NCBI GenBank assembly: GCA_963666835.2
Contig: CAXXGO010000001.1
Coordinates: forward strand, 1,856,001-1,920,000
DNA length: 64,000 nucleotides
Origin: Phycisphaerae bacterium
GTDB taxonomy: Bacteria; Planctomycetota; Phycisphaerae; UBA1845
Direction of reading: 5' to 3'
Made by a program: the position numbers and the translations under genes. This document shows positions 38,897-47,111 of this stretch, piece after piece (position 1 is the first letter of the stretch; the number at the start of each line of letters is the position of its first letter). A model generated the notes under the pieces. It had not been told where the DNA came from. It saw nothing but the letters and a program-made list of their open reading frames with translations, and did no database searches.

Positions 38897-39634
38897 ATGG
38901 CCAAGAGAAGAACCGTCGTGGTTGTCGAGGATGAGAGTGCAATTCGGCGTGGTATCGTTGATATGCTCAAGGTGGCCGGGTTTGATCCGGTCGAAGCGGC
39001 CGACGGAGAGACCGGCCTGAAGGAAGCACAACGAACGGGCGTGGAACTGGTCCTGCTTGATTTGCTCCTCCCGAAGATGGATGGGTTCAGTGTATTGGAG
39101 AAACTGCGCGTAACACGCCCTTCTCTGCCGGTCATTATTCTAACGGCGCGGGGATCCGAGGATGATCGGGTCCGGGGTTTGCGCGGCGGCGCGGATGACT
39201 ATGTGATGAAGCCGTTTTCCGCGCGCGAGCTGTTGGCCCGGATAGATGCGGTGCTCCGCCGGAGCCCTGAACGACCCGCTCCGGTTACGCTGATTCGTGG
39301 GGCGGGAGTGTTGGTGGATTGCGGACGCCGGGAGATCTCGCACGCCGATGGGACCCGCGTGGCTTTGTCCGAGATGGAGGCCGGGATCATGCAACGCCTC
39401 GCCGCTCTGGGCGGGCGGGCGGTGTCGCGGGAGGAGTTGCTCTCCAGTGTCTGGGGGATTCGCGACGGCGTGGTCGAGACCCGGGCGATTGACATGCACA
39501 TTACGAGGCTCAGGCAGAAGCTGGCCGGGGAGTCCACCGAGACTGGGTTGGAGTGGATTGTCACCGTGCGGGGGAAGGGCTATATGCTCGGTTCGGATCT
39601 TGAGGTTACGACGGTGGGCCAGGACGAGGGGTAG
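38897..39634 (+). CDS. OmpR/PhoB-family response regulator
   Basis: VVED, LLDLLLP, ILTA, GADDYVMKPF; winged helix HITRLRQKL..IVTVRGKGY. Confidence 0.96.
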   Translation: MAKRRTVVVVEDESAIRRGIVDMLKVAGFDPVEAADGETGLKEAQRTGVELVLLDLLLPKMDGFSVLEKLRVTRPSLPVIILTARGSEDDRVRGLRGGADDYVMKPFSARELLARIDAVLRRSPERPAPVTLIRGAGVLVDCGRREISHADGTRVALSEMEAGIMQRLAALGGRAVSREELLSSVWGIRDGVVETRAIDMHITRLRQKLAGESTETGLEWIVTVRGKGYMLGSDLEVTTVGQDEG

Positions 39635-39639
39635 CTGCC

Positions 39640-41523
39640 ATGACCGGCTCGCAGAAGAACAAGCTGGCGTCGCTGGTCGGCTTTGTGCTCATCGCCGTGC
39701 TGGTTGTGGGGGGGATGGCCTGGGCGACGGTGGCGACGTTCGATCTCGAGAAGGAGAACGTCCGCCGAGAACATCTCAAGAACGTCTTGCTTGCCGTTTC
39801 GGAGATCGACAGTCACATTCGTGGGGTGCTTAAGTCGGAGACGTCTCGACCGTTCACGGACTACCTGAAGTTGCACACTGCCGAGCCGGTTGCGGGTTGG
39901 AGCGAGGGTGGAGCCACGGAGGACGTGGATCTGGTGGTCTTACGCTCTCCCATAAGGGAGTCCGGACCGGCGTACGAATGGGTGGATTTGTATTTCCAGG
40001 CCGTCGAGGACGGCACCTGGTCGACCCCGCAGGTTGCGGCGGACGGACGGGACCCCGAGATGCTCGAGTGGCTCCAGGCGGTGCTTCCTATCCGAGAATT
40101 GGAGAAGCGGGTAAGGCAGGCCACGAAAAGAGACGAGGCCGTAGCGGATAGTGTCGACGGTTTGTCATCGGTACGGCGGAATGCTCAGGCAGCGCGCGGT
40201 GGGCACTCTCATAGGCGCCCTCATGAGCATTTTCCGCCTCCGGCTTGGCGAGATTACCAACGGCGCCGGGAGAGTAGGATCGCGGCGCAACGTGAGTCCC
40301 TTCCCGGTGACCAATGTGTGCCGGTGCGTCTGGTGGAGGAGTTTTTGGCAGGGTCACCGTCAGACCCTTTGGCGCCGGATCGCCACCTTTACGTTTGCAC
40401 TCCGCCGGTTGCGGTGGGGCTTTCGCTCGATCCGATGGCCACGTTCTGGATCGAACCTTCGGATGAGATCGGGCGCAAACTGGCATTCGTGCGAACGGGA
40501 TACGAGGACGACAAGCTCGTTCGGCAGGGGTTCATCGCAGATTGGGAGAAGCTCAAAAACGAACTGCTCAGCATGATCAAGCCATGGTTCCCCGAGGCGG
40601 ACCTGGAGCCTCTGCCGGATGAGTTGGCGGTGGACCTGGCGACAAGCGAGACGGCCATCGCGTCGATAAACGTCCGGTTGCAGGTTCCCGAGTCCCCCGG
40701 TGAGACGTCGGCGGCGGCTTGGCGGAATATCCGCGGAGTCATGTACACGACGTGGGGGGTTGCCGTGGCGGTGTTAGTGCTGGCAGCGTGGGGCGTACGC
40801 AACTTGGTGGCACTTACGGAACGACGAATGCAATTCGCCTATGCGGTTACGCATGAACTGCGTACGCCGTTGACCACTTTCCGGCTCTATGCGGATATGC
40901 TCTCGGCAGGGTTGGTGCCGGAGGATGCCAAGGAAGAGTATCTCGACACGCTCAACCGGGAGTCCATGCGGCTGTCGAGTTTGGTGGAGGGTGTCCTCGA
41001 ATATGCCCGGATCGAGAACCAGAAGGTCAGGTTGAAGCCCGTAGAGACCGATGCGGATGCCCTGATGGCGTCCGTGGCTGATACCCTCAACAAACGTTGC
41101 GACAGCAGCGGGGTGGAGCCGCGGAGCGAGAGCAAGGTGGACGGGAGCAGGCAGCTCCGCATCGATGTGGACGCGGTCAATCAGATCCTCGGCGTACTTA
41201 TTGCCAACGCCTGCCGGCATGCGCGCGATTCCGACAGTCCCGCCGTTCTGGTTCGCCTGACCGGGGATGAGGGAAGACTGTATCTGGACGTTATTGATAG
41301 CGGTCCGGGGATCGACCGCGCCGATGCCCGGACCATATTCAAACCCTTCCGGCGGGGGCGGAGGGCTGCAGTTGCAGCCCACGGAGGAATCGGTCTTGGG
41401 CTGGCCCTCGCTCGTGACTGGGCCCAACTGGTGGGGGGGCGGTTGGATCTTATCGCGCGACATCACTCGCAATACGGCGGCGCCCATTTCCGCCTGACCA
41501 TCCCGGCCCGGATCCCCGAGTAA
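39640..41523 (+). CDS. Membrane sensor histidine kinase
   Basis: Two TM helices, H-box THELRTPL, N-box LIANA, DSGPGI, F-box IFKPF, GIGLGL. Confidence 0.95.
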   Translation: MTGSQKNKLASLVGFVLIAVLVVGGMAWATVATFDLEKENVRREHLKNVLLAVSEIDSHIRGVLKSETSRPFTDYLKLHTAEPVAGWSEGGATEDVDLVVLRSPIRESGPAYEWVDLYFQAVEDGTWSTPQVAADGRDPEMLEWLQAVLPIRELEKRVRQATKRDEAVADSVDGLSSVRRNAQAARGGHSHRRPHEHFPPPAWRDYQRRRESRIAAQRESLPGDQCVPVRLVEEFLAGSPSDPLAPDRHLYVCTPPVAVGLSLDPMATFWIEPSDEIGRKLAFVRTGYEDDKLVRQGFIADWEKLKNELLSMIKPWFPEADLEPLPDELAVDLATSETAIASINVRLQVPESPGETSAAAWRNIRGVMYTTWGVAVAVLVLAAWGVRNLVALTERRMQFAYAVTHELRTPLTTFRLYADMLSAGLVPEDAKEEYLDTLNRESMRLSSLVEGVLEYARIENQKVRLKPVETDADALMASVADTLNKRCDSSGVEPRSESKVDGSRQLRIDVDAVNQILGVLIANACRHARDSDSPAVLVRLTGDEGRLYLDVIDSGPGIDRADARTIFKPFRRGRRAAVAAHGGIGLGLALARDWAQLVGGRLDLIARHHSQYGGAHFRLTIPARIPE

Positions 41524-41567: not shown

Positions 41568-41612
41568 TTGACGGCATACTATGGGCATAGTAGGATTGCT
41601 ACCTGTCTAGTA
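41568..41612 (+). promoter_or_regulatory. Sigma70-type promoter overlapped by two BlaI-type operators
   Basis: TTGACG (41568-41573), 17-bp spacer, TAGGAT (41591-41596). Palindrome TACTATGGGCATAGTA (41577-41592) and near-copy TGCTACCTGTCTAGTA (41597-41612). Confidence 0.75.
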
Positions 41613-41624
41613 GGGAGGTCGGCG

Positions 41625-42023
41625 ATGGCTGAGCGAATGCCTCATGTAACGGCCGCAGAGCTGCGGATCATGAAGGTGCTGTGGCAGTTCGGGTCGGGGA
41701 CTGTCCGGCAGGTACTCGAGGTTCTGTCGGCTGAGAAGGGTGATCCCCCGGCGTACACGACGGTGATGACCATGATGAAGCAGCTTGCGGAAAAGGGGGC
41801 TCTCAAGGTTGATCGGGCGCGCCAGCCATACTTGTACACGCCGTTGATCCGCCGCGAGAACGTGCTCGGTGAGCGGGTGGCCCAGTTTGTTCAGACGGTC
41901 TTTGATGGGCAGGCGGCGGACCTCGTGTTGCACCTGGCGGAGGAGGCCCCGCTTTCTATGGAGGACCTCCGGCGGATCGAGGCCAAGATCAGGCAACGCG
42001 AACAGGCGGAGGGCGAAGCGTAG
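41625..42023 (+). CDS. BlaI/MecI/CopY-family transcriptional repressor
   Basis: TAAELRIMKVLW, AYTTVMTMMKQLAEKG, YLYTP, FDG. GGAGG RBS. Confidence 0.95.
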   Translation: MAERMPHVTAAELRIMKVLWQFGSGTVRQVLEVLSAEKGDPPAYTTVMTMMKQLAEKGALKVDRARQPYLYTPLIRRENVLGERVAQFVQTVFDGQAADLVLHLAEEAPLSMEDLRRIEAKIRQREQAEGEA

Positions 42024-42064: not shown

Positions 42065-43855
42065 ATGGACACTCCACTGGCTATGCCGGGTGATCCGGCA
42101 ACCGTGATCTTGGTCTGGATAGCGCACGGTTTGGTCCTGGGAACCGTTCTGGCCGGTTTCACCTGGTTGTCACTTCGAATCCTTCGGAATCGAGTTCGGC
42201 CTGCTCTGGAGATGGTGCTCTGGCTGGTGGTGCTGTTGAAGTTCCTGGTGCCGGCCGGGCCGATCTGCTCGACGGTACTCAGTGCTTTCGTCACGCAACC
42301 TGTACGCGACGCGGCGGCGGACTTCTGTCTTACTGAAGCGGCCCGCGAGGGAGTCGGGGAGACCGGGGCGATGAGCGGCTCGGTAATAGCGACGCCGCCG
42401 CGGCACCGCGAGGCTCGTAAGAAAGGTCTCGCGTCAGCTTTGGGGTTTTACGGGCGACAGATTGTCGCGTTGTATTCCGTAGCGTTTACCGCTTTGGTGC
42501 TCCTTCGGCTCTGGACGCACCACCGGTTTGCCGCCCGCTGCCGACTGCTCCCGCAGGCCGATGAGCGGACCGGCAAGCTGGTTTCAGATGTGTGCCGGCG
42601 GCTTGGAATGCGCCGGATTCCCTCTATTCGGATCGGTGAAGATCTCCCGGCGCCCTTCGTGATGGGGATCCTTCACCCGATGCTCGTTCTGACGCGTCGT
42701 CAACTCGTTCGGCCGGACGAATTGGAGACGGTGGTCGCGCACGAACTTGCTCATTTCCGGCGGGGCGACTTTTTTGTGCGTTATTTTCAATGGTTTGCCG
42801 GATCCGTGTTGTTCTTCTGGCCGGTCATTGCTTGGGTCAATCGGCGTCTTGACGCGGCCCGCGAGTGTGCTTGCGACGAATGGGCCCTTCGTTGCGGCAA
42901 ACTCACGGCGCCTCAGTATGCCAGGTGCCTGTTGCAGGCGGCGAGTCCGCGGCGTTTGCGCGGCATAGCCTACTGCCCGCAGAGCATGGCCGGCAACTTG
43001 ACTGTGATCGAAAGGAGAATCGATATGATTCTGGAGAAGCAGGGATGCCAATCTCCACGATACCGTTGGGGCCTTCTGACTCTGGCGGTACTTGCGGCTT
43101 GGAGTGGTCTCGCCCTTACCGGGGCCGCAGATGTTGAATCCGCCGCTTATTCACCTGGTGGTGTTCGACCGGCGACGGTTGAGGCGGTGACTGATCATGC
43201 CGTCGAGTTGTACGAGCTGGTCTCCGAGCGGGGGCCGGCGGATTTCGATGGTGACGGAACTGTGACATACCTGGAGAAGGACGTCTATCTGGTGGCGGTG
43301 GCCATGGGGTTGCAGGAGGCGTTCATGGACCAGTACCCGTTTGCGGATCGTAACCACAGTGGGATTCTGGATTTCCTCGAGGCGTACGGGGTGATCCGGG
43401 GGATCACGCGAATAGCGTATCTCGATCGGGTGATCGGAGCAGAAATGGAATCTGTGGCGGAGCCGGAGACTGACGCCGGACGAGAGGCGCTCCGGGCTAT
43501 CGAAGCCAAGTACGCTCCCGATGCCCTGGCACTTCTGCATGAGTCGCTTGAGGCCCAGCGTTGGTTGCTGGATAACCTGGAATCCGAGCCGAGCCGAGCG
43601 GACCTCGACAACATCTGGTCGGTGCTTCGCCGAGTCTCCGGCTCACCGGAGTCTTATAGTCAGCGGATGTTGAATCACGGCGCTCCGCCGAGCGAACGGA
43701 AATGTGGAGAAGGAGGCCGGTTCCAGGAGATTGAGGGTAGCATCGCCCAGATTGAGGCTCAGCTTGCCGTTGAGGGAGACCCGGCGCACGTGGCGAAGCT
43801 CAAAACGAAGCTAACCAAGCTGGAGACGATTCTGGCAGATCTGCGGAGCCGTTGA
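42065..43855 (+). CDS. BlaR1-like M56 metallopeptidase with a C-terminal EF-hand-like domain
   Basis: PFVMG, AHELAHFRRGD, FFWP, ARECACDE, YARCL, ERRIDMI; loops DFDGDGTVTYLE and DRNHSGILDFLE. Confidence 0.93.
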   Translation: MDTPLAMPGDPATVILVWIAHGLVLGTVLAGFTWLSLRILRNRVRPALEMVLWLVVLLKFLVPAGPICSTVLSAFVTQPVRDAAADFCLTEAAREGVGETGAMSGSVIATPPRHREARKKGLASALGFYGRQIVALYSVAFTALVLLRLWTHHRFAARCRLLPQADERTGKLVSDVCRRLGMRRIPSIRIGEDLPAPFVMGILHPMLVLTRRQLVRPDELETVVAHELAHFRRGDFFVRYFQWFAGSVLFFWPVIAWVNRRLDAARECACDEWALRCGKLTAPQYARCLLQAASPRRLRGIAYCPQSMAGNLTVIERRIDMILEKQGCQSPRYRWGLLTLAVLAAWSGLALTGAADVESAAYSPGGVRPATVEAVTDHAVELYELVSERGPADFDGDGTVTYLEKDVYLVAVAMGLQEAFMDQYPFADRNHSGILDFLEAYGVIRGITRIAYLDRVIGAEMESVAEPETDAGREALRAIEAKYAPDALALLHESLEAQRWLLDNLESEPSRADLDNIWSVLRRVSGSPESYSQRMLNHGAPPSERKCGEGGRFQEIEGSIAQIEAQLAVEGDPAHVAKLKTKLTKLETILADLRSR

Positions 43856-43971: not shown

Positions 43972-44103
43972 CAGGCAGATCCGCTACGCGGCAGGTCGCG
44001 GACGATCTTTTGTGATTTGACGATGCCCCCGGGTCAGCCCTAGTATTGTCGCTGTGAACACGACCCCGCATGTGGTGTGCGGGTTGAAGAAAGAGGGTTT
44101 GCG

Positions 44104-45591
44104 GTGGCTGAAGAACTTGCCCGGCAGGTTCGGTCGTTTCGGGGGCGGCGGGTGTTGCTTGTGGGGGATCTGATCCTCGATCGGTACCTGTACGGAGACG
44201 CCGAGCGGATTAGTCCGGAGGCTCCGGTTCCCGTATTGCGCACGGTAGAAACGCGAGAGGCTGTCGGCGGCAGCGCCAATGTGGCGGCGTGCCTGCAGGC
44301 TCTTGGCTGTGAAGTGGTCGTGTGCGGCACGATCGGCCAGGACCAGCACGGGGAGACGCTCAGTTGCCTTCTTGACGAGCTGAGGGTGAACACTGCGGGC
44401 GTGCTTTCCCTGGCAAACCGACCCACGACCACCAAGACCCGGTTGGTCGGGTTGGCACAGCATCGCCACCGGCAGCAACTGCTGCGCGTGGACGAAGAGG
44501 AAACCGGTCCGCTTCCGGAAGAGTCGTCGGCGCGGCTGGCGGGGCTCGCGTGTGATTTGGTGGGCGATGCCGATGTTGTGTGCCTTGAGGATTACGACAA
44601 GGGCGTCATCTCGGATTCCCTGGTGTCGATGATTGTGGAGGAGGCGCGTCGCCACGGATGCCGCGTTCTGGTGGATCCGGCACGCTTGCGCTCGTACGAT
44701 CGCTACCGCGGGACGGACATTCTCACGCCGAACCGGGACGAACTGTCGATTGCCGCCGGTGCTAAGCTCACCACCCTTGATGAGGTTGCGAAAGCGGCGA
44801 CGGCCGTGGTGGATTCGTGCAACGTCGGGGCGATCGTGGCGACGCTCGACCGGGAGGGCGCTTTGGTGGTTGAACGGGGGAGCGTTTGGCATCATCTGCC
44901 GACGGTGCCTCGAAGCGTTTACGACAACACTGGGGCGGGTGATGCCGTTCTGGCGATGCTTGCCGCGGCGGTGGCTGGCGGGGCCGACCTGAAAGCCGCA
45001 GCGCGGCTGGCCAACATTGCGGGAGGCCTCGAGGTCGAGAAGTTCGGGTGTGTGCCTATCACGGCGGACGAAGTGCTGGCGGAGCTGCGGCTCGAGGACC
45101 GAAATCACAATGGCAAGCTCCGATCGGTTGAGGAGCTGGTGGCTGAGCTGACCCTGCGGCGCGATCGCGGCGAGAATGTGGTGTTCACTAACGGGTGTTT
45201 CGACATTCTTCACGCCGGTCATGTGGATTTGTTGAAGCGTTGTCGGCGGGAGGGGGCGCTGCTGGTTGTCGGGCTCAATACGGATGGATCGATCCGCTCG
45301 CTCGATAAGGGATCGGATCGACCCGTTTGCGGGTTTGCCGACCGGGCTGCGGTCCTCGGTGCTTTGGAGTGTGTGGATTACGTGGTGGGTTTTGAGGAGT
45401 CCACGCCCGAGGCGCTGATTCGCAAGATCCGTCCGGATGTGCTGGTCAAGGGGCAAGACTGGGCGGGCAAGACCGTGGTGGGGCAGGAATTCGTGGAGTC
45501 GACCGGCGGGAAGGTTGTTTTACTTCCGTTGGTCGAAGGGCTGAGTACGACGAACTTGATCGAACGCATCCGAAGCGGAAGGCAGAGTTAG
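44104..45591 (+). CDS. hldE: Bifunctional heptose-7-phosphate kinase / heptose-1-phosphate adenylyltransferase
   Basis: RISPEAPVPV, DYDKG, TPN, DNTGAGD; FTNGCFDILHAGH, GLNTD, PDVLVKG, STT. Confidence 0.97.
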   Translation: MAEELARQVRSFRGRRVLLVGDLILDRYLYGDAERISPEAPVPVLRTVETREAVGGSANVAACLQALGCEVVVCGTIGQDQHGETLSCLLDELRVNTAGVLSLANRPTTTKTRLVGLAQHRHRQQLLRVDEEETGPLPEESSARLAGLACDLVGDADVVCLEDYDKGVISDSLVSMIVEEARRHGCRVLVDPARLRSYDRYRGTDILTPNRDELSIAAGAKLTTLDEVAKAATAVVDSCNVGAIVATLDREGALVVERGSVWHHLPTVPRSVYDNTGAGDAVLAMLAAAVAGGADLKAAARLANIAGGLEVEKFGCVPITADEVLAELRLEDRNHNGKLRSVEELVAELTLRRDRGENVVFTNGCFDILHAGHVDLLKRCRREGALLVVGLNTDGSIRSLDKGSDRPVCGFADRAAVLGALECVDYVVGFEESTPEALIRKIRPDVLVKGQDWAGKTVVGQEFVESTGGKVVLLPLVEGLSTTNLIERIRSGRQS

Positions 45592-46157
45592 TGGCCGACA
45601 GTTTTGCAGGTCAGTTCGATGAGCACCAGCGCGTTGTGGATGCCGCCAAGGCCCACGCGGGACTTCTCGAGAGAGTTGCAGATCTCATTACGAGTTGTTT
45701 CAAAGAGGGGGGGCGTCTGTACGTGCTGGGTAATGGTGGGAGCGCGGCCGATGCTCAGCACATCGCCGCGGAACTCGTCGGTCGGTTCAAGCACGATCGG
45801 CAGGCGCTGCCGGCCGTGGCATTGACGACGGACACATCGATCCTCACGGCGGTCAGCAACGATTACGGAGGCGAGGTGTGCTTCCAGCGGCAGGTCGAGG
45901 CGCTGGTTACCAGTAATGACATCGTGTGGGCATTGAGTGTCTCCGGGACGTCGCCCAACGTGGTTAGAGCTCTGGAGAGCGCCAAGAAGATCGGAGCTTC
46001 ATTGATAGGTTTTACCGGGCAGTCCGGCGGCAGGTTCGAAGATATCTGCGACGTGTGTTTCCGCGTGGATCACGAGGACAGCGACCGGGTTCAGGAGGTA
46101 CATGGGCTTGCGTATCACCTGGTTTGCGGCCGGGTCGAGAGTCGTTTTCTGAAATAG
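45591..46157 (+). CDS. gmhA: Phosphoheptose isomerase (SIS domain)
   Basis: GNGGSAADAQH, LTTDTS, NDYG, SGTSPNV, VQEVH. Confidence 0.96.
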   Translation: MADSFAGQFDEHQRVVDAAKAHAGLLERVADLITSCFKEGGRLYVLGNGGSAADAQHIAAELVGRFKHDRQALPAVALTTDTSILTAVSNDYGGEVCFQRQVEALVTSNDIVWALSVSGTSPNVVRALESAKKIGASLIGFTGQSGGRFEDICDVCFRVDHEDSDRVQEVHGLAYHLVCGRVESRFLK

Positions 46158-46184
46158 CAGCTTGCTTGCGGAAAGGTAGCTGGC

Positions 46185-47111
46185 ATGAACATACTCATAA
46201 CCGGTTCGAGCGGGCAGATCGGTACTAACACGGCTTTGGCATTGCTGGAGCGCGGCGACACGGTTGTCGGAGTGGATTGCCGAGAGAACACCTGGGTCGA
46301 CCGGTTCGAGACGATCAAGCTCAATCTGATCGACGGGGCGCCCGCTGGACTACCCGACGGAAGCCGGTTCGACGCGGTTCTTCATCTGGCGGCGAATGCG
46401 AAGGTCTTCGAATTGGTCGAGCATCCCGAGCGGGCCATGGACAACATCAAGAGCCTCTTCGGTGTGCTAGAGTACTGCCGGCTCAACAAGCTGCCGATCA
46501 TCTTCGCCAGCTCGCGCGAAGTGTACGGCGATATTCACCGCCACGTGACCGACGAAGCATCTGCGGATTTCGTCGTGGCTGAGAGCCCGTATAGTGCCAG
46601 CAAGATCGCCGGGGAGGCGCTCATTTACTCGTATGCTCAATGCTATGGGCTGCCGTTCTTGGTCTTTCGATTCAGCAACGTGTACGGCCGGTACGACAAC
46701 GACATCGAGCGGCTCGAGCGCGTGATCCCGCTGTTCATCGATCGTATCGCCCGCGAGCGGCCCATAGTAGTGTACGGGAAGGAGAAGGTGCTGGATTTCA
46801 CGTACGTGGACGATGCGGTGGCAGGGGTCCTGGCCGGAATAGACGCCCTCGTCTCCGGGCGAGTCGTGGGTCAGACGGTCAACTTAGCGTGCGGGCAGGG
46901 CAGCACCCTGGTTGATGTGGTCAACATAGTTTCATTGGCTTTGCAGAAGAAGCCGCGGGTGACCTACGAACCGTCGCGGGCGGGTGAAGTCACTCGGTAC
47001 GTCGCGGACATTACCAAGGCTCGTGAGCTGCTGGCGTACGAACCGCAAGTCCCATTCAGCACCGGTCTCATTCTAGCCGTGGAGTGGGGGGCGAAGTCAA
47101 ATCGCAAGTGA
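46185..47111 (+). CDS. NAD-dependent epimerase/dehydratase (extended SDR)
   Basis: ITGSSGQIG, HLAA, ASSREVYG, YSASK, RFSNVYG, DFTYVDD. Confidence 0.93.
   Translation: MNILITGSSGQIGTNTALALLERGDTVVGVDCRENTWVDRFETIKLNLIDGAPAGLPDGSRFDAVLHLAANAKVFELVEHPERAMDNIKSLFGVLEYCRLNKLPIIFASSREVYGDIHRHVTDEASADFVVAESPYSASKIAGEALIYSYAQCYGLPFLVFRFSNVYGRYDNDIERLERVIPLFIDRIARERPIVVYGKEKVLDFTYVDDAVAGVLAGIDALVSGRVVGQTVNLACGQGSTLVDVVNIVSLALQKKPRVTYEPSRAGEVTRYVADITKARELLAYEPQVPFSTGLILAVEWGAKSNRK

What the first reader, a model, noticed from the sequence alone, without database searches (positions are those of the whole stretch)
43011..43855. Probable nested in-frame gene in the M56 sensor: internal Shine-Dalgarno plus signal peptide
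Seen: the ERRIDM segment is encoded GAA AGG AGA ATC GAT ATG. Two consecutive Arg codons that are rare in GC-rich genomes create AAAGGAGA, with AGGAG 7 nt before the in-frame ATG at 43025. Translation from there gives MILEKQGCQSPRYRWGLLTLAVLAAWSGLALTGAAD, which has n/h/c signal-peptide structure, and a 276-aa protein. Inference: one gene yields both the membrane sensor-protease and a free secreted copy of its sensor domain (effector, decoy or ligand buffer). This could be a general design of M56 fusions.
Basis: partly seen in the sequence, partly recalled or inferred. Interest (0 to 1): 0.7.

Follow-up and report, generated by a model that had tools for sequence, protein, structure and literature searches.

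The report
Conserved internal start inside M56 sensor-protease gene
A BlaR1-type membrane sensor-protease gene carries, just before its last membrane helix, an in-frame ribosome-binding site plus start codon whose "silent" bases are kept almost unchanged in over a hundred distant relatives, so the gene likely also makes a second, shorter protein consisting of a membrane anchor and the calcium-binding-type sensor domain.

Summary
In detail: GAA AGG AGA ATC GAT ATG sits at 43010-43027, AGGAG 7 nt before an in-frame ATG (M321) of the M56 gene 42065-43855. In one genome this is not beyond chance (36 of 22,563 internal in-frame ATGs have AAGGAG nearby). Comparison makes it significant: in 119 non-identical homologous genes (35-55% protein identity; Planctomycetota, Acidobacteriota MAGs, metagenomes) the two Arg codons are AGG (118/119) and AGA (118/119) against 4.3% and 2.4% elsewhere in the same genes; codon 321 is ATG (95) or GTG (24), never another Val codon; these are the two most synonymously constrained of 489 codon columns; local RNA structure is minimal there. 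In more distant M56 paralogs, GGAG co-occurs with the start codon, and paralogs without Met mostly use CGN CGN. The best reading is a conserved internal translation start giving a 276-aa isoform. The "signal peptide" is the fourth transmembrane helix of the M56 fold, so the product is more likely membrane-anchored than freely secreted. The design is common but not universal in M56 (S. aureus BlaR1 has Asn there). No expression or protein data exist; the isoform's function is inferred only. New member of the known class of in-frame internal start sites.

The parts
41568..41596 (+). promoter-like site (TTGACG-17-TAGGAT) upstream of the blaI-like gene, overlapping palindromes (ACTATGGGCATAGT); the only promoter-like match before the internal start
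   Evidence: consensus scan only; palindromes read
41625..42023 (+). BlaI/MecI/CopY-type repressor gene (132 aa), first gene of the pair
   Evidence: Pfam Penicillinase_R 3.1e-29; a homologue lies directly upstream on the same strand in 78 of 80 related loci
42065..43855 (+). M56 (BlaR1-type) sensor-protease gene, 596 aa, long isoform
   Evidence: Pfam Peptidase_M56 6.8e-32, residues 27-322; 350 homologues
42740..42754 (+). HEXXH zinc motif (H226 E227 ... H230)
   Evidence: invariant in 114/114
42873..42895 (+). second nucleotide-conserved element: inverted repeat GCGACGAA-TGGGCCC-TTCGTTGC inside codons 270-277 (CDEWALRC); possible RNA hairpin, role unknown
   Evidence: codon 276 CGT 57/62, third most biased column; 81.9% of cells paired, 20 double changes vs 7.7 in shuffles, slid controls 15-53%
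43010..43017 (+). internal Shine-Dalgarno GAAAGGAG (codons E316 R317 R318), 8 nt complementary to the 16S tail
   Evidence: AGG 118/119, AGA 118/119, GAA 99/119; top two of 489 columns for synonymous bias
43025..43027 (+). internal in-frame start codon ATG (Met321)
   Evidence: ATG 95, GTG 24, nothing else in 119
43025..43855 (+). predicted nested ORF, 276-aa short isoform (stop included)
   Evidence: inferred product, not shown
43067..43129 (+). hydrophobic segment residues 335-355: TM4 of the long isoform, predicted signal-anchor (or signal peptide) of the short one
   Evidence: hydropathy 337-355; column conservation
43241..43276 (+). EF-hand-type loop 1, DFDGDGTVTYLE (D393-E404)
   Evidence: sequence; D393, E404 invariant; profile hits to EF-hand Ca-binding proteins 7.2e-8
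43346..43381 (+). EF-hand-type loop 2, DRNHSGILDFLE (D428-E439)
   Evidence: sequence; E439 invariant, D428 at least 90%

Best explanation
The M56 sensor-protease gene contains a deeply conserved in-frame Shine-Dalgarno sequence and start codon at Met321, which likely serve as an internal translation start, so that one mRNA would give both the 596-aa sensor-protease and a 276-aa isoform. Shown: the sequence, its complementarity to the 16S tail, the conservation of its synonymous bases and of ATG/GTG, the dip in RNA structure, and the absence of a stand-alone gene for the sensor part in the search made. Inferred: that ribosomes initiate there. The short isoform would start three residues after the Arg-Arg pair that aligns with BlaR1 Arg293/Arg294 (Arg294 completes the partner's active site in the S. 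aureus dimer, PMC9834060), so it would lack every protease element and keep a short positively charged tail, the last transmembrane helix and the extracytoplasmic EF-hand-type domain. It is predicted to insert N-in/C-out as a membrane-anchored sensor-only protein. Its role is speculative: the most likely is tuning of signalling, either by binding ligand without output or by pairing with the long form.
For: (1) Synonymous constraint: 119 non-identical contexts (of 127 sites in window + 80 genome loci + 51 metagenome loci): codon 317 AGG 118, codon 318 AGA 118, codon 316 GAA 99/GAG 15 (first seen). Background in the same genes: AGG 4.3%, AGA 2.4% of 3,773 Arg codons, GAA 36%. (2) Internal controls: two other conserved Arg-Arg pairs use mixed CGN codons, 0/73 and 0/66 AGG-AGA. 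(3) Codons 317 and 318 score 300 and 342 bits, the top two of 489 columns; median 21.6, 95th percentile 44.8. (4) Start codon: ATG 95, GTG 24; all 24 Val are GTG against 40.7% GTG among 4,217 Val codons. (5) Other in-frame ATGs of the same 77 genes: 35 of 925 have GGAG 5-13 nt upstream, 3 of 925 AGGAG. (6) Least RNA structure (-5.2 to -6.2 vs mean -10.8 kcal/mol, sd 1.95) and GC 0.44 vs about 0.65 at -24..+12, the deepest trough within +-420 nt, 73 genes; codon 322 ATT 67/119 vs 21% background. (7) Canonical anti-SD in this genome; AGGAG upstream of 230/3,249 first starts vs 95/22,563 internal ATGs; duplex -11.8 kcal/mol. (8) Distant paralogs: 63 Planctomycetota M56 genes: start at 321 with GGAG 15, start without GGAG 2, GGAG without start 3, neither 43; Arg-Arg without Met: 10 of 14 CGN-CGN. 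L093 has SD and ATG both moved one codon upstream, spacing kept at 7 nt. In a second phylum 7/7 RRxxM use AGG AGR and two KER-x-x-M genes keep the SD as AAG GAG AGA, i.e. with other amino acids. CGG AGA variants (L004, L212, L216, L221) keep GGAG. (9) No promoter-like site between the gene start and the internal start; no stand-alone homologue of the 276-aa part among proteins of 151-483 aa, only 3 truncated fused forms. (10) Precedent: arcB internal GUG with SD gives ArcB-C, abolished by synonymous mutations (10.1101/520783, passages read).
Against: No expression, ribosome-profiling or protein evidence: no RNA run holds the stretch. Kin are not independent: on a tree of 120 paralogs the start trait changes at least 11 times but only 6 independent pairs on supported branches were available; SD went the same way in about 4.4, the other way in 0, sign test median p 0.125, so the co-occurrence test is underpowered. 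One of 114 homologous proteins has Ile at 321 (P0112; no DNA seen). AGA rather than AGG at codon 318 (118/119) weakens rather than maximises pairing to the anti-SD, which a pure 'strong SD' model does not predict. The Arg-Arg pair and Met/Val are also under protein-level constraint (E316, R317, R318 invariant 114/114). ATG/GTG followed by A also creates a +1-frame TGA in 116 of 119, so GTG-only is not uniquely explained by a start codon. Initiation inside an actively translated ORF may be inefficient. The structure job had not finished after repeated collection, so topology rests on hydropathy and the BlaR1 alignment.
Confidence: 0.7

Rival explanations
1. The SD-like sequence acts on elongating ribosomes, not initiating ones: anti-SD pairing or the two rare Arg codons slow translation just before the last transmembrane helix emerges, helping folding of the protease domain or membrane insertion. 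Met/Val321 would then be conserved for protein reasons only.
For: The element lies about 15 codons before TM4; AGG and AGA are rare; synonymous conservation alone does not tell pausing from initiation; AGA instead of the better-pairing AGG is easier to accept if the aim is not maximal initiation.
Against: Does not explain Val always as GTG (24/24), the fixed 7-nt spacing, the joint one-codon shift of SD and ATG in L093, the use of CGN CGN in 10 of 14 paralogs that keep Arg-Arg but lack Met, or the structure-poor, AT-rich stretch that extends past the start codon. CGG AGA variants keep GGAG but drop the rare AGG. That SD-like pausing is disputed is recalled, not checked here.
Confidence: 0.12
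2. Programmed or error-trapping +1 frameshift: slow decoding of AGG/AGA lets ribosomes slip to the +1 frame, where a TGA (from ATG-A or GTG-A) ends translation after 4 codons, giving a truncated protease-only product, or the TGA merely catches accidental shifts.
For: A +1-frame stop lies within 6 codons in 116 of 119 sites; both ATG-A and GTG-A create it, which would also explain GTG-only. That rare AGG codons promote +1 shifts (yeast Ty1, tandem AGG in E. coli) is recalled, not checked.
Against: The codon before AGG varies (GAA, GAG, CAA, AAA, CAG, ATG, GGT, GCC, ACC), so there is no conserved slippery P-site codon; three sites (L004, L023, L069) lack the near stop (25-84 codons) yet keep SD and ATG; L093 keeps SD and ATG without a TGA; the product would lack the Arg pair aligned with the BlaR1 active-site Arg294; no in-frame stop as in prfB and no slippery heptamer as in dnaX (recalled models).
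Confidence: 0.04
3. The conserved bases are a binding site for an RNA-binding protein or small RNA, or part of an RNA structure with the upstream hairpin (mRNA processing or stability), without producing a second protein.
For: A second nucleotide-conserved palindrome lies 130 nt upstream; GGA in a purine-rich single-stranded stretch resembles CsrA-type sites (recalled).
Against: RNAalifold found no conserved long-range pairing between the two elements; the short UCGA stem round the SD has no covariation support (28 of 119 outer pairs, below the shuffle mean of 41); the hairpin motif CDEWALRH is absent from distant paralogs that still have SD plus ATG; no Rfam family matches. A regulator bound at an SD would usually act on initiation, which merges with the main explanation.
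Confidence: 0.08

Closest known systems
arcB internal start site giving ArcB-C in E. coli (Meydan et al., bioRxiv 10.1101/520783; passages read)
   Same: In-frame internal start with an SD-like sequence inside the gene of a membrane sensor, placed at a domain boundary, conserved among species, giving the C-terminal domain as a separate protein.
   Different: ArcB-C is cytosolic and diffusible and was shown by tagging and synonymous mutations; here the product would begin with a transmembrane helix and carry the extracytoplasmic input domain, nothing is shown experimentally, and conservation spans many paralog families and at least two phyla.
S. aureus BlaR1 (PDB 8EXP; PMC9834060, passages read; B. 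licheniformis BlaR1, PMC3356374)
   Same: M56 zinc protease with HEXXH, four transmembrane helices, extracellular C-terminal sensor, partner repressor gene next door; R317/R318 align with Arg293/Arg294 and D271 with Asp246 (E 9.5e-6).
   Different: The sensor here is EF-hand-type, not a class-D beta-lactamase-like domain; NCBIfam blaR1_generic 42.5 bits against a cut-off of 400; S. aureus BlaR1 has Asn297 where this family has Met321, so no start codon at that place in the solved sequence.
Classical bacterial in-frame isoform pairs (IF2 forms named in 10.1101/520783; ClpB, CheA and the phage lambda S holin/antiholin dual start are recalled, not checked here)
   Same: Two proteins from one reading frame through a second SD and start codon; in lambda S the choice of start changes the behaviour of a membrane protein.
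   Different: None of these is an M56 protease, and none known to me turns an internal transmembrane helix into an N-terminal anchor of a sensor domain.
Connexin43 truncated isoform from internal translation (PMC11687303; search listing and start of abstract only)
   Same: A membrane-protein mRNA also encodes a C-terminal truncated isoform that acts on the full-length protein.
   Different: Eukaryotic, different initiation mechanism, unrelated protein.

Membership tests
Peptidase M56 (BlaR1/MecR1-type sensor-proteases) | Match to the Pfam Peptidase_M56 model above its cut-off | tested here: met
   111.3 bits vs cut-off 31, residues 27-322, profile 11-296 of 296
Peptidase M56 (BlaR1/MecR1-type sensor-proteases) | HEXXH zinc motif and the Asp/Arg pair of the active site (BlaR1 Asp246, Arg294) | tested here: met
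   H226, E227, H230, D271, R317, R318 invariant in 114/114; aligned with BlaR1 residues
Peptidase M56 (BlaR1/MecR1-type sensor-proteases) | Four transmembrane helices with the sensor after the last one | tested here: inconclusive
   Four hydrophobic segments by hydropathy, about 14-40, 44-68, 133-151, 337-355; no topology predictor on hand and the structure job did not finish
Peptidase M56 (BlaR1/MecR1-type sensor-proteases) | Adjacent BlaI/MecI-type repressor gene | tested here: met
   Penicillinase_R 3.1e-29; upstream in 78 of 80 related loci
BlaR1 beta-lactam sensor (NCBIfam blaR1_generic) | Full-length match including the penicillin-binding sensor domain | tested here: not met
   42.5 bits vs cut-off 400, match limited to residues 165-323; C-terminal part matches EF-hand proteins instead
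In-frame internal translation initiation site | SD complementary to the organism's anti-SD at working distance from an in-frame ATG/GTG/TTG | tested here: met
   GAAAGGAG vs 16S tail CUCCUUUC, 7-nt spacer after AGGAG; -11.8 kcal/mol
In-frame internal translation initiation site | Conservation of SD and start codon beyond what the protein sequence requires | tested here: met
In-frame internal translation initiation site | Initiating ribosomes and a protein product from the site | not testable with these tools
   No RNA run listed; no ribosome profiling or proteomics on hand
Sec-type cleavable signal peptide (for the short isoform) | Positive n-region | tested here: met
   3 basic and 1 acidic residue in the first 14
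Sec-type cleavable signal peptide (for the short isoform) | Short h-region (about 7-15 residues; figure recalled) and a conserved small-x-small cleavage site | tested here: inconclusive
   Hydrophobic stretch about 19-21 residues, with W346, F349, L351, G353 conserved as in a packed helix; residue 354 is A 56, V 28, T 11, P 7 and residue 355 A 73, V 16 of 114; no SignalP on hand
EF-hand calcium-binding domain (sensor part) | 12-residue loops DxDxDG...E / DxNxSG...E in a pair | tested here: met
   DFDGDGTVTYLE and DRNHSGILDFLE; family profile hits EF-hand Ca-binding proteins at 7.2e-8. The window's own protein is below Pfam's cut-off (EF-hand_1 13.7 vs 25.4 bits); 39 of 45 scanned relatives of the main clade (proteins 1-45) list EF-hand families at E up to 0.001, most above cut-off. 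Calcium binding itself not testable.

The most novel reading that the evidence does not exclude
A large part of the M56 sensor-protease family, in at least two phyla and with many different sensor domains (EF-hand, TonB_C plus STN, HEAT, others), is built as a two-isoform system: the same mRNA yields the sensor-protease and a protease-less, membrane-anchored copy of its sensor. Because the short form starts just after the arginine that in BlaR1 reaches across the domain-swapped dimer into the partner's active site, a long-short heterodimer would lack that arginine, so the ratio of the two starts would set the gain or threshold of an irreversible proteolytic switch.
Probability: 0.2. Interest if true: 0.85.

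Novelty: new member of a known kind. Interest (0 to 1): 0.66.

Why it matters
M56 proteins are abundant one-step signalling proteases (up to 14 matches per genome in the Planctomycetota sampled), yet only the beta-lactam sensors BlaR1 and MecR1 have been studied. If a second isoform is made, models of how these irreversible switches are set, buffered or reset would need a new component, and annotation pipelines miss a protein in many genomes. The case also shows that codon-level conservation can expose internal start sites in uncultured lineages where ribosome profiling is not possible. Searches of the held literature for BlaR1, MecR1 or peptidase M56 together with internal or alternative starts listed no paper joining the two topics (0 papers; none among the 15 listed of 340), and none on an M56 EF-hand sensor.

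Tried and rejected
Structure prediction of the full protein with alignment A1: not finished after 22 collecting calls, so no model, no fold search. Long-range pairing between the upstream hairpin and the SD: RNAalifold gave none. A 4-5 bp stem (G)UCGA/UCGA(C) presenting the SD in a loop: outer pair forms in 28 of 119, below the shuffle mean of 41, rejected. Frameshift reading: see rivals. Internal promoter: none by the sigma-70 consensus scan, which may not fit this phylum. Rfam: no family at the site; three weak matches elsewhere, all far below gathering scores. Stand-alone sensor gene: none among proteins of 151-483 aa (only the 8,000 candidates sharing most words were scored; shorter and longer classes not searched). 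Earlier findings of this scan: three look-ups, nothing. Complex prediction was not used: a long-short pairing is only my speculative case and the two chains share sequence. phmmer of the single protein against PDB found nothing; profiles were needed. Llarrull et al. 2011 (PMC3207446) is not held. My first regex missed four loci with Q/K before Arg-Arg; they also carry AGG AGA. Three extra regex matches (L038, L116, L123, a downstream SRRIW motif) are false sites and were left out of the 119.
Full report
WHAT IS THERE. Window 42065..43855 (+) is a 596-aa ORF matching Pfam Peptidase_M56 over residues 27-322 (6.8e-32). It is preceded by a 132-aa BlaI/MecI/CopY-type repressor gene at 41625..42023 (Penicillinase_R 3.1e-29). 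The sequence at 43010-43027 reads GAA AGG AGA ATC GAT ATG. AGGAG is at 43013-43017, seven bases follow, and ATG 43025 is in frame (Met321).

IS IT MORE THAN CHANCE? Within this genome alone, no. Among 22,563 internal in-frame ATGs of long ORFs, 95 have AGGAG and 36 have AAGGAG 4-10 nt upstream. The site is strong all the same. The 16S tail is ...CACCUCCUUUCU, so GAAAGGAG pairs over 8 nt. The duplex energy is -11.8 kcal/mol, against -9.4 for the gene's own start and -12.0 for blaI. Only 0.27% of 6,000 sampled internal ATGs and 2.5% of 3,249 first-start candidates are as strong. AGGAG is about 17-fold enriched before first starts (230/3,249) over internal ATGs (95/22,563), so this organism uses SD-led initiation.

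THE COMPARATIVE TEST. A protein search gave 350 homologues, and I aligned 114 of the 120 listed. E316, R317 and R318 are invariant (114/114); position 321 is Met 77, Val 36, Ile 1. DNA of relatives came from two searches whose peptide patterns lie away from the site. One kept the best 80 of 170 genome loci, the other the best 80 of 172 metagenome stretches, 79 loci. Pooled with the window, 127 sites gave 119 non-identical 300-nt contexts. Codon 317 is AGG in 118 (one CGG) and codon 318 is AGA in 118 (one AGG). Codon 316 is GAA 99, GAG 15. Codon 321 is ATG 95, GTG 24 and nothing else. In the rest of the same genes AGG is 4.3% and AGA 2.4% of 3,773 Arg codons, GTG 40.7% of 4,217 Val codons, and GAA 36% of Glu codons. 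These proteins are only 35-55% identical, and their other synonymous sites are scrambled: two further conserved Arg-Arg pairs (HExxHxRR, WxNRR) use 16 and 20 different codon pairs, with AGG-AGA in 0/73 and 0/66. A per-column measure of synonymous bias over 489 aligned codons puts 318 and 317 first and second (342 and 300 bits; median 21.6; 95th percentile 44.8). Other in-frame ATGs of these 77 genes have GGAG 5-13 nt upstream in 35 of 925 and AGGAG in 3 of 925. Sliding 40-nt folds over 73 genes show the weakest structure (-5.2 to -6.2 vs mean -10.8 kcal/mol) and the lowest GC (0.44 vs about 0.65) from -24 to +12 of the internal start. This is the deepest trough within 420 nt either side. Codon 322 is ATT in 67/119 against 21% background.

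MORE DISTANT M56 GENES. I aligned 71 Planctomycetota M56 loci to a profile of the family: the window genome's own paralog, 30 chosen by the tool, and 40 that I picked from the listing because their Pfam match reached the end of the model. Of these, 63 aligned without gaps at the site. A start codon at column 321 together with GGAG across codons 317-318 occurs in 15. Two have a start without GGAG; one of them is a TTG Leu codon that my rule counted as a start. Three have GGAG without a start, and 43 have neither (Fisher 8e-10, but kin are not independent). Of 14 paralogs that keep Arg-Arg without ATG/GTG at 321, 10 use CGN CGN. Three carry GGAG, and two of those have GTG or ATG one codon away. 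L093 has the SD and ATG both displaced by exactly one codon (CGG AGA CGA TTC ATG), which keeps the 7-nt spacing. The window genome's own second M56 gene (L082, GRRLTM) reads GGT AGG AGA CTT ACG ATG.

In a second phylum (that of G151, the genome of L020, whose record title says Acidobacteriota), 32 of 38 loci aligned. All 7 RRxxM genes use AGG AGR. Two KER-x-x-M genes keep the SD as AAG GAG AGA, that is, with different amino acids. The 4 genes with GGAG but no start at 321 have ATG at column 322 or 323. A 25-member soil clade (DARVAAVL) has neither Arg-Arg, Met nor SD. A phylogenetic check on 120 paralogs (FastTree, site columns excluded) shows at least 11 changes of the start trait. Only 6 independent pairs lay on supported branches; the SD went the same way in about 4.4 and the opposite way in 0 (sign test median p 0.125). 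The direction is consistent but the test is underpowered.

WHAT THE PIECES ARE. A profile of the M56 part hits S. aureus BlaR1 (8EXP, E 9.5e-6) and aligns vERRIdmiL with LKRRLINIK. R317/R318 therefore correspond to Arg293/Arg294, D271 to Asp246, and M321 to Asn297. [quoted passage not shown] Mutating the Arg pair in B. licheniformis lowers induction (PMC3356374). This explains why the two arginines are invariant as amino acids, but not why their codons are. Within it W346 (113/114), L351 (111) and G353 (114) are conserved, as expected for a packed helix of the M56 fold rather than a disposable leader. The C-terminal part has two canonical EF-hand loops (D393-E404, D428-E439). The family profile hits EF-hand calcium-binding proteins (7.2e-8). 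EF-hand families are listed for 39 of the 45 predicted short isoforms of the main clade that I scanned. In paralogs with the internal start the C-terminal parts differ: TonB_C plus STN (L267), HEAT repeats (L258), a prenyltransferase-like repeat (L093), or no Pfam match. The blaI-like gene lies directly upstream in 78 of 80 loci.

MECHANISM. Shown: sequence, complementarity, conservation, low structure, no promoter-like site inside the gene, and no stand-alone gene for the sensor part in the length class searched. Inferred: 30S subunits bind GAAAGGAG and start at Met321 on the same mRNA, giving a 276-aa protein. It would have a 14-residue basic cytoplasmic tail, one transmembrane helix as signal-anchor (less likely a cleaved leader), and the EF-hand domain outside. 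It would lack HEXXH, Asp271 and the Arg pair. Speculative: it binds ligand without output, or pairs with the long form and thereby withholds the trans-acting arginine, setting the threshold of an irreversible switch.

RIVALS. Elongation pausing, a +1 frameshift (a TGA follows in the +1 frame within 6 codons in 116 of 119 sites) and an RNA-binding site are weighed in their own sections. Each leaves the start-codon pattern, the spacing or the paralog pattern unexplained.

UNEXPLAINED. It is not clear why AGA, and not the better-pairing AGG, is fixed at codon 318 (118/119). Codon 315 ends in a pyrimidine in 108/119 (GTG 4 of 46 Val there). A palindrome at codons 270-277 is also conserved at synonymous sites. 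One homologue has Ile at 321.

NOVELTY AND LIMITS. In-frame internal starts are a known kind (IF2 and ArcB-C in 10.1101/520783). I found no report of one in M56/BlaR1-type genes, nor of an EF-hand M56 sensor. These searches cover only the held library. All evidence here is comparative: there are no RNA, ribosome or protein data, and no structure model (unfinished).

Noticed in passing
window 42873-42895 (codons 270-277): Inverted repeat GYGACGAA-TGGGCCC-TTCGTYRC coding the motif CDEWALR(H/C), conserved at synonymous sites (GCC 72/77, CGT 57/62, TGT 59/77). 81.9% of cells pair, with compensatory U-A to C-G changes (9 sequences, the window among them). Possible RNA hairpin or DNA palindrome about 130 nt before the internal start; absent from distant paralogs that have the start.
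   Followed up: partly
window 43241-43381: The sensor domain of this M56 protease is an EF-hand pair followed by a helical, coiled-coil-like tail, so the BlaI/M56 pair may be a calcium- or metal-responsive proteolytic switch; I found no description of this in the searched literature.
   Followed up: partly
window 43016-43018 (codon 318) and 43007-43009 (codon 315): AGA is fixed (118/119) although AGG would pair one base further with the anti-SD. Codon 315 ends in C or T in 108/119, with GTG strongly avoided. Neither is explained.
   Followed up: no
window 41568-41625: Promoter-like TTGACG-17-TAGGAT overlapped by the palindromes TACTATGGGCATAGTA and CTAC-N7-GTAG just before blaI: likely operators of the repressor.
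   Followed up: no
L267 (G157:C37), L258, L093: M56 paralogs with the same internal SD and ATG carry other C-terminal modules. In L267 the predicted 237-aa short isoform is anchor plus STN plus TonB_C, that is, the architecture of a TonB-like protein.
   Followed up: partly
L082 (own genome, G000:C1 about 396,400): Second M56 gene of the same genome (ORF over 969 aa, Pro-rich and Lys-rich C-terminal part) also has AGG AGA ... ATG at the equivalent place (GRRLTM).
   Followed up: partly
P0112 (homologue, no DNA seen): The only one of 114 aligned homologues with Ile instead of Met/Val at position 321 (IERRINIIL): a possible exception or a non-canonical start.
   Followed up: no
window 38897-41523 and 44077-47111: Neighbours are a response regulator and histidine kinase pair upstream, and hldE-like, gmhA-like and epimerase-like ORFs downstream (named by eye from the translations, not tested). 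No obvious target gene of the repressor lies in the operon.
   Followed up: no
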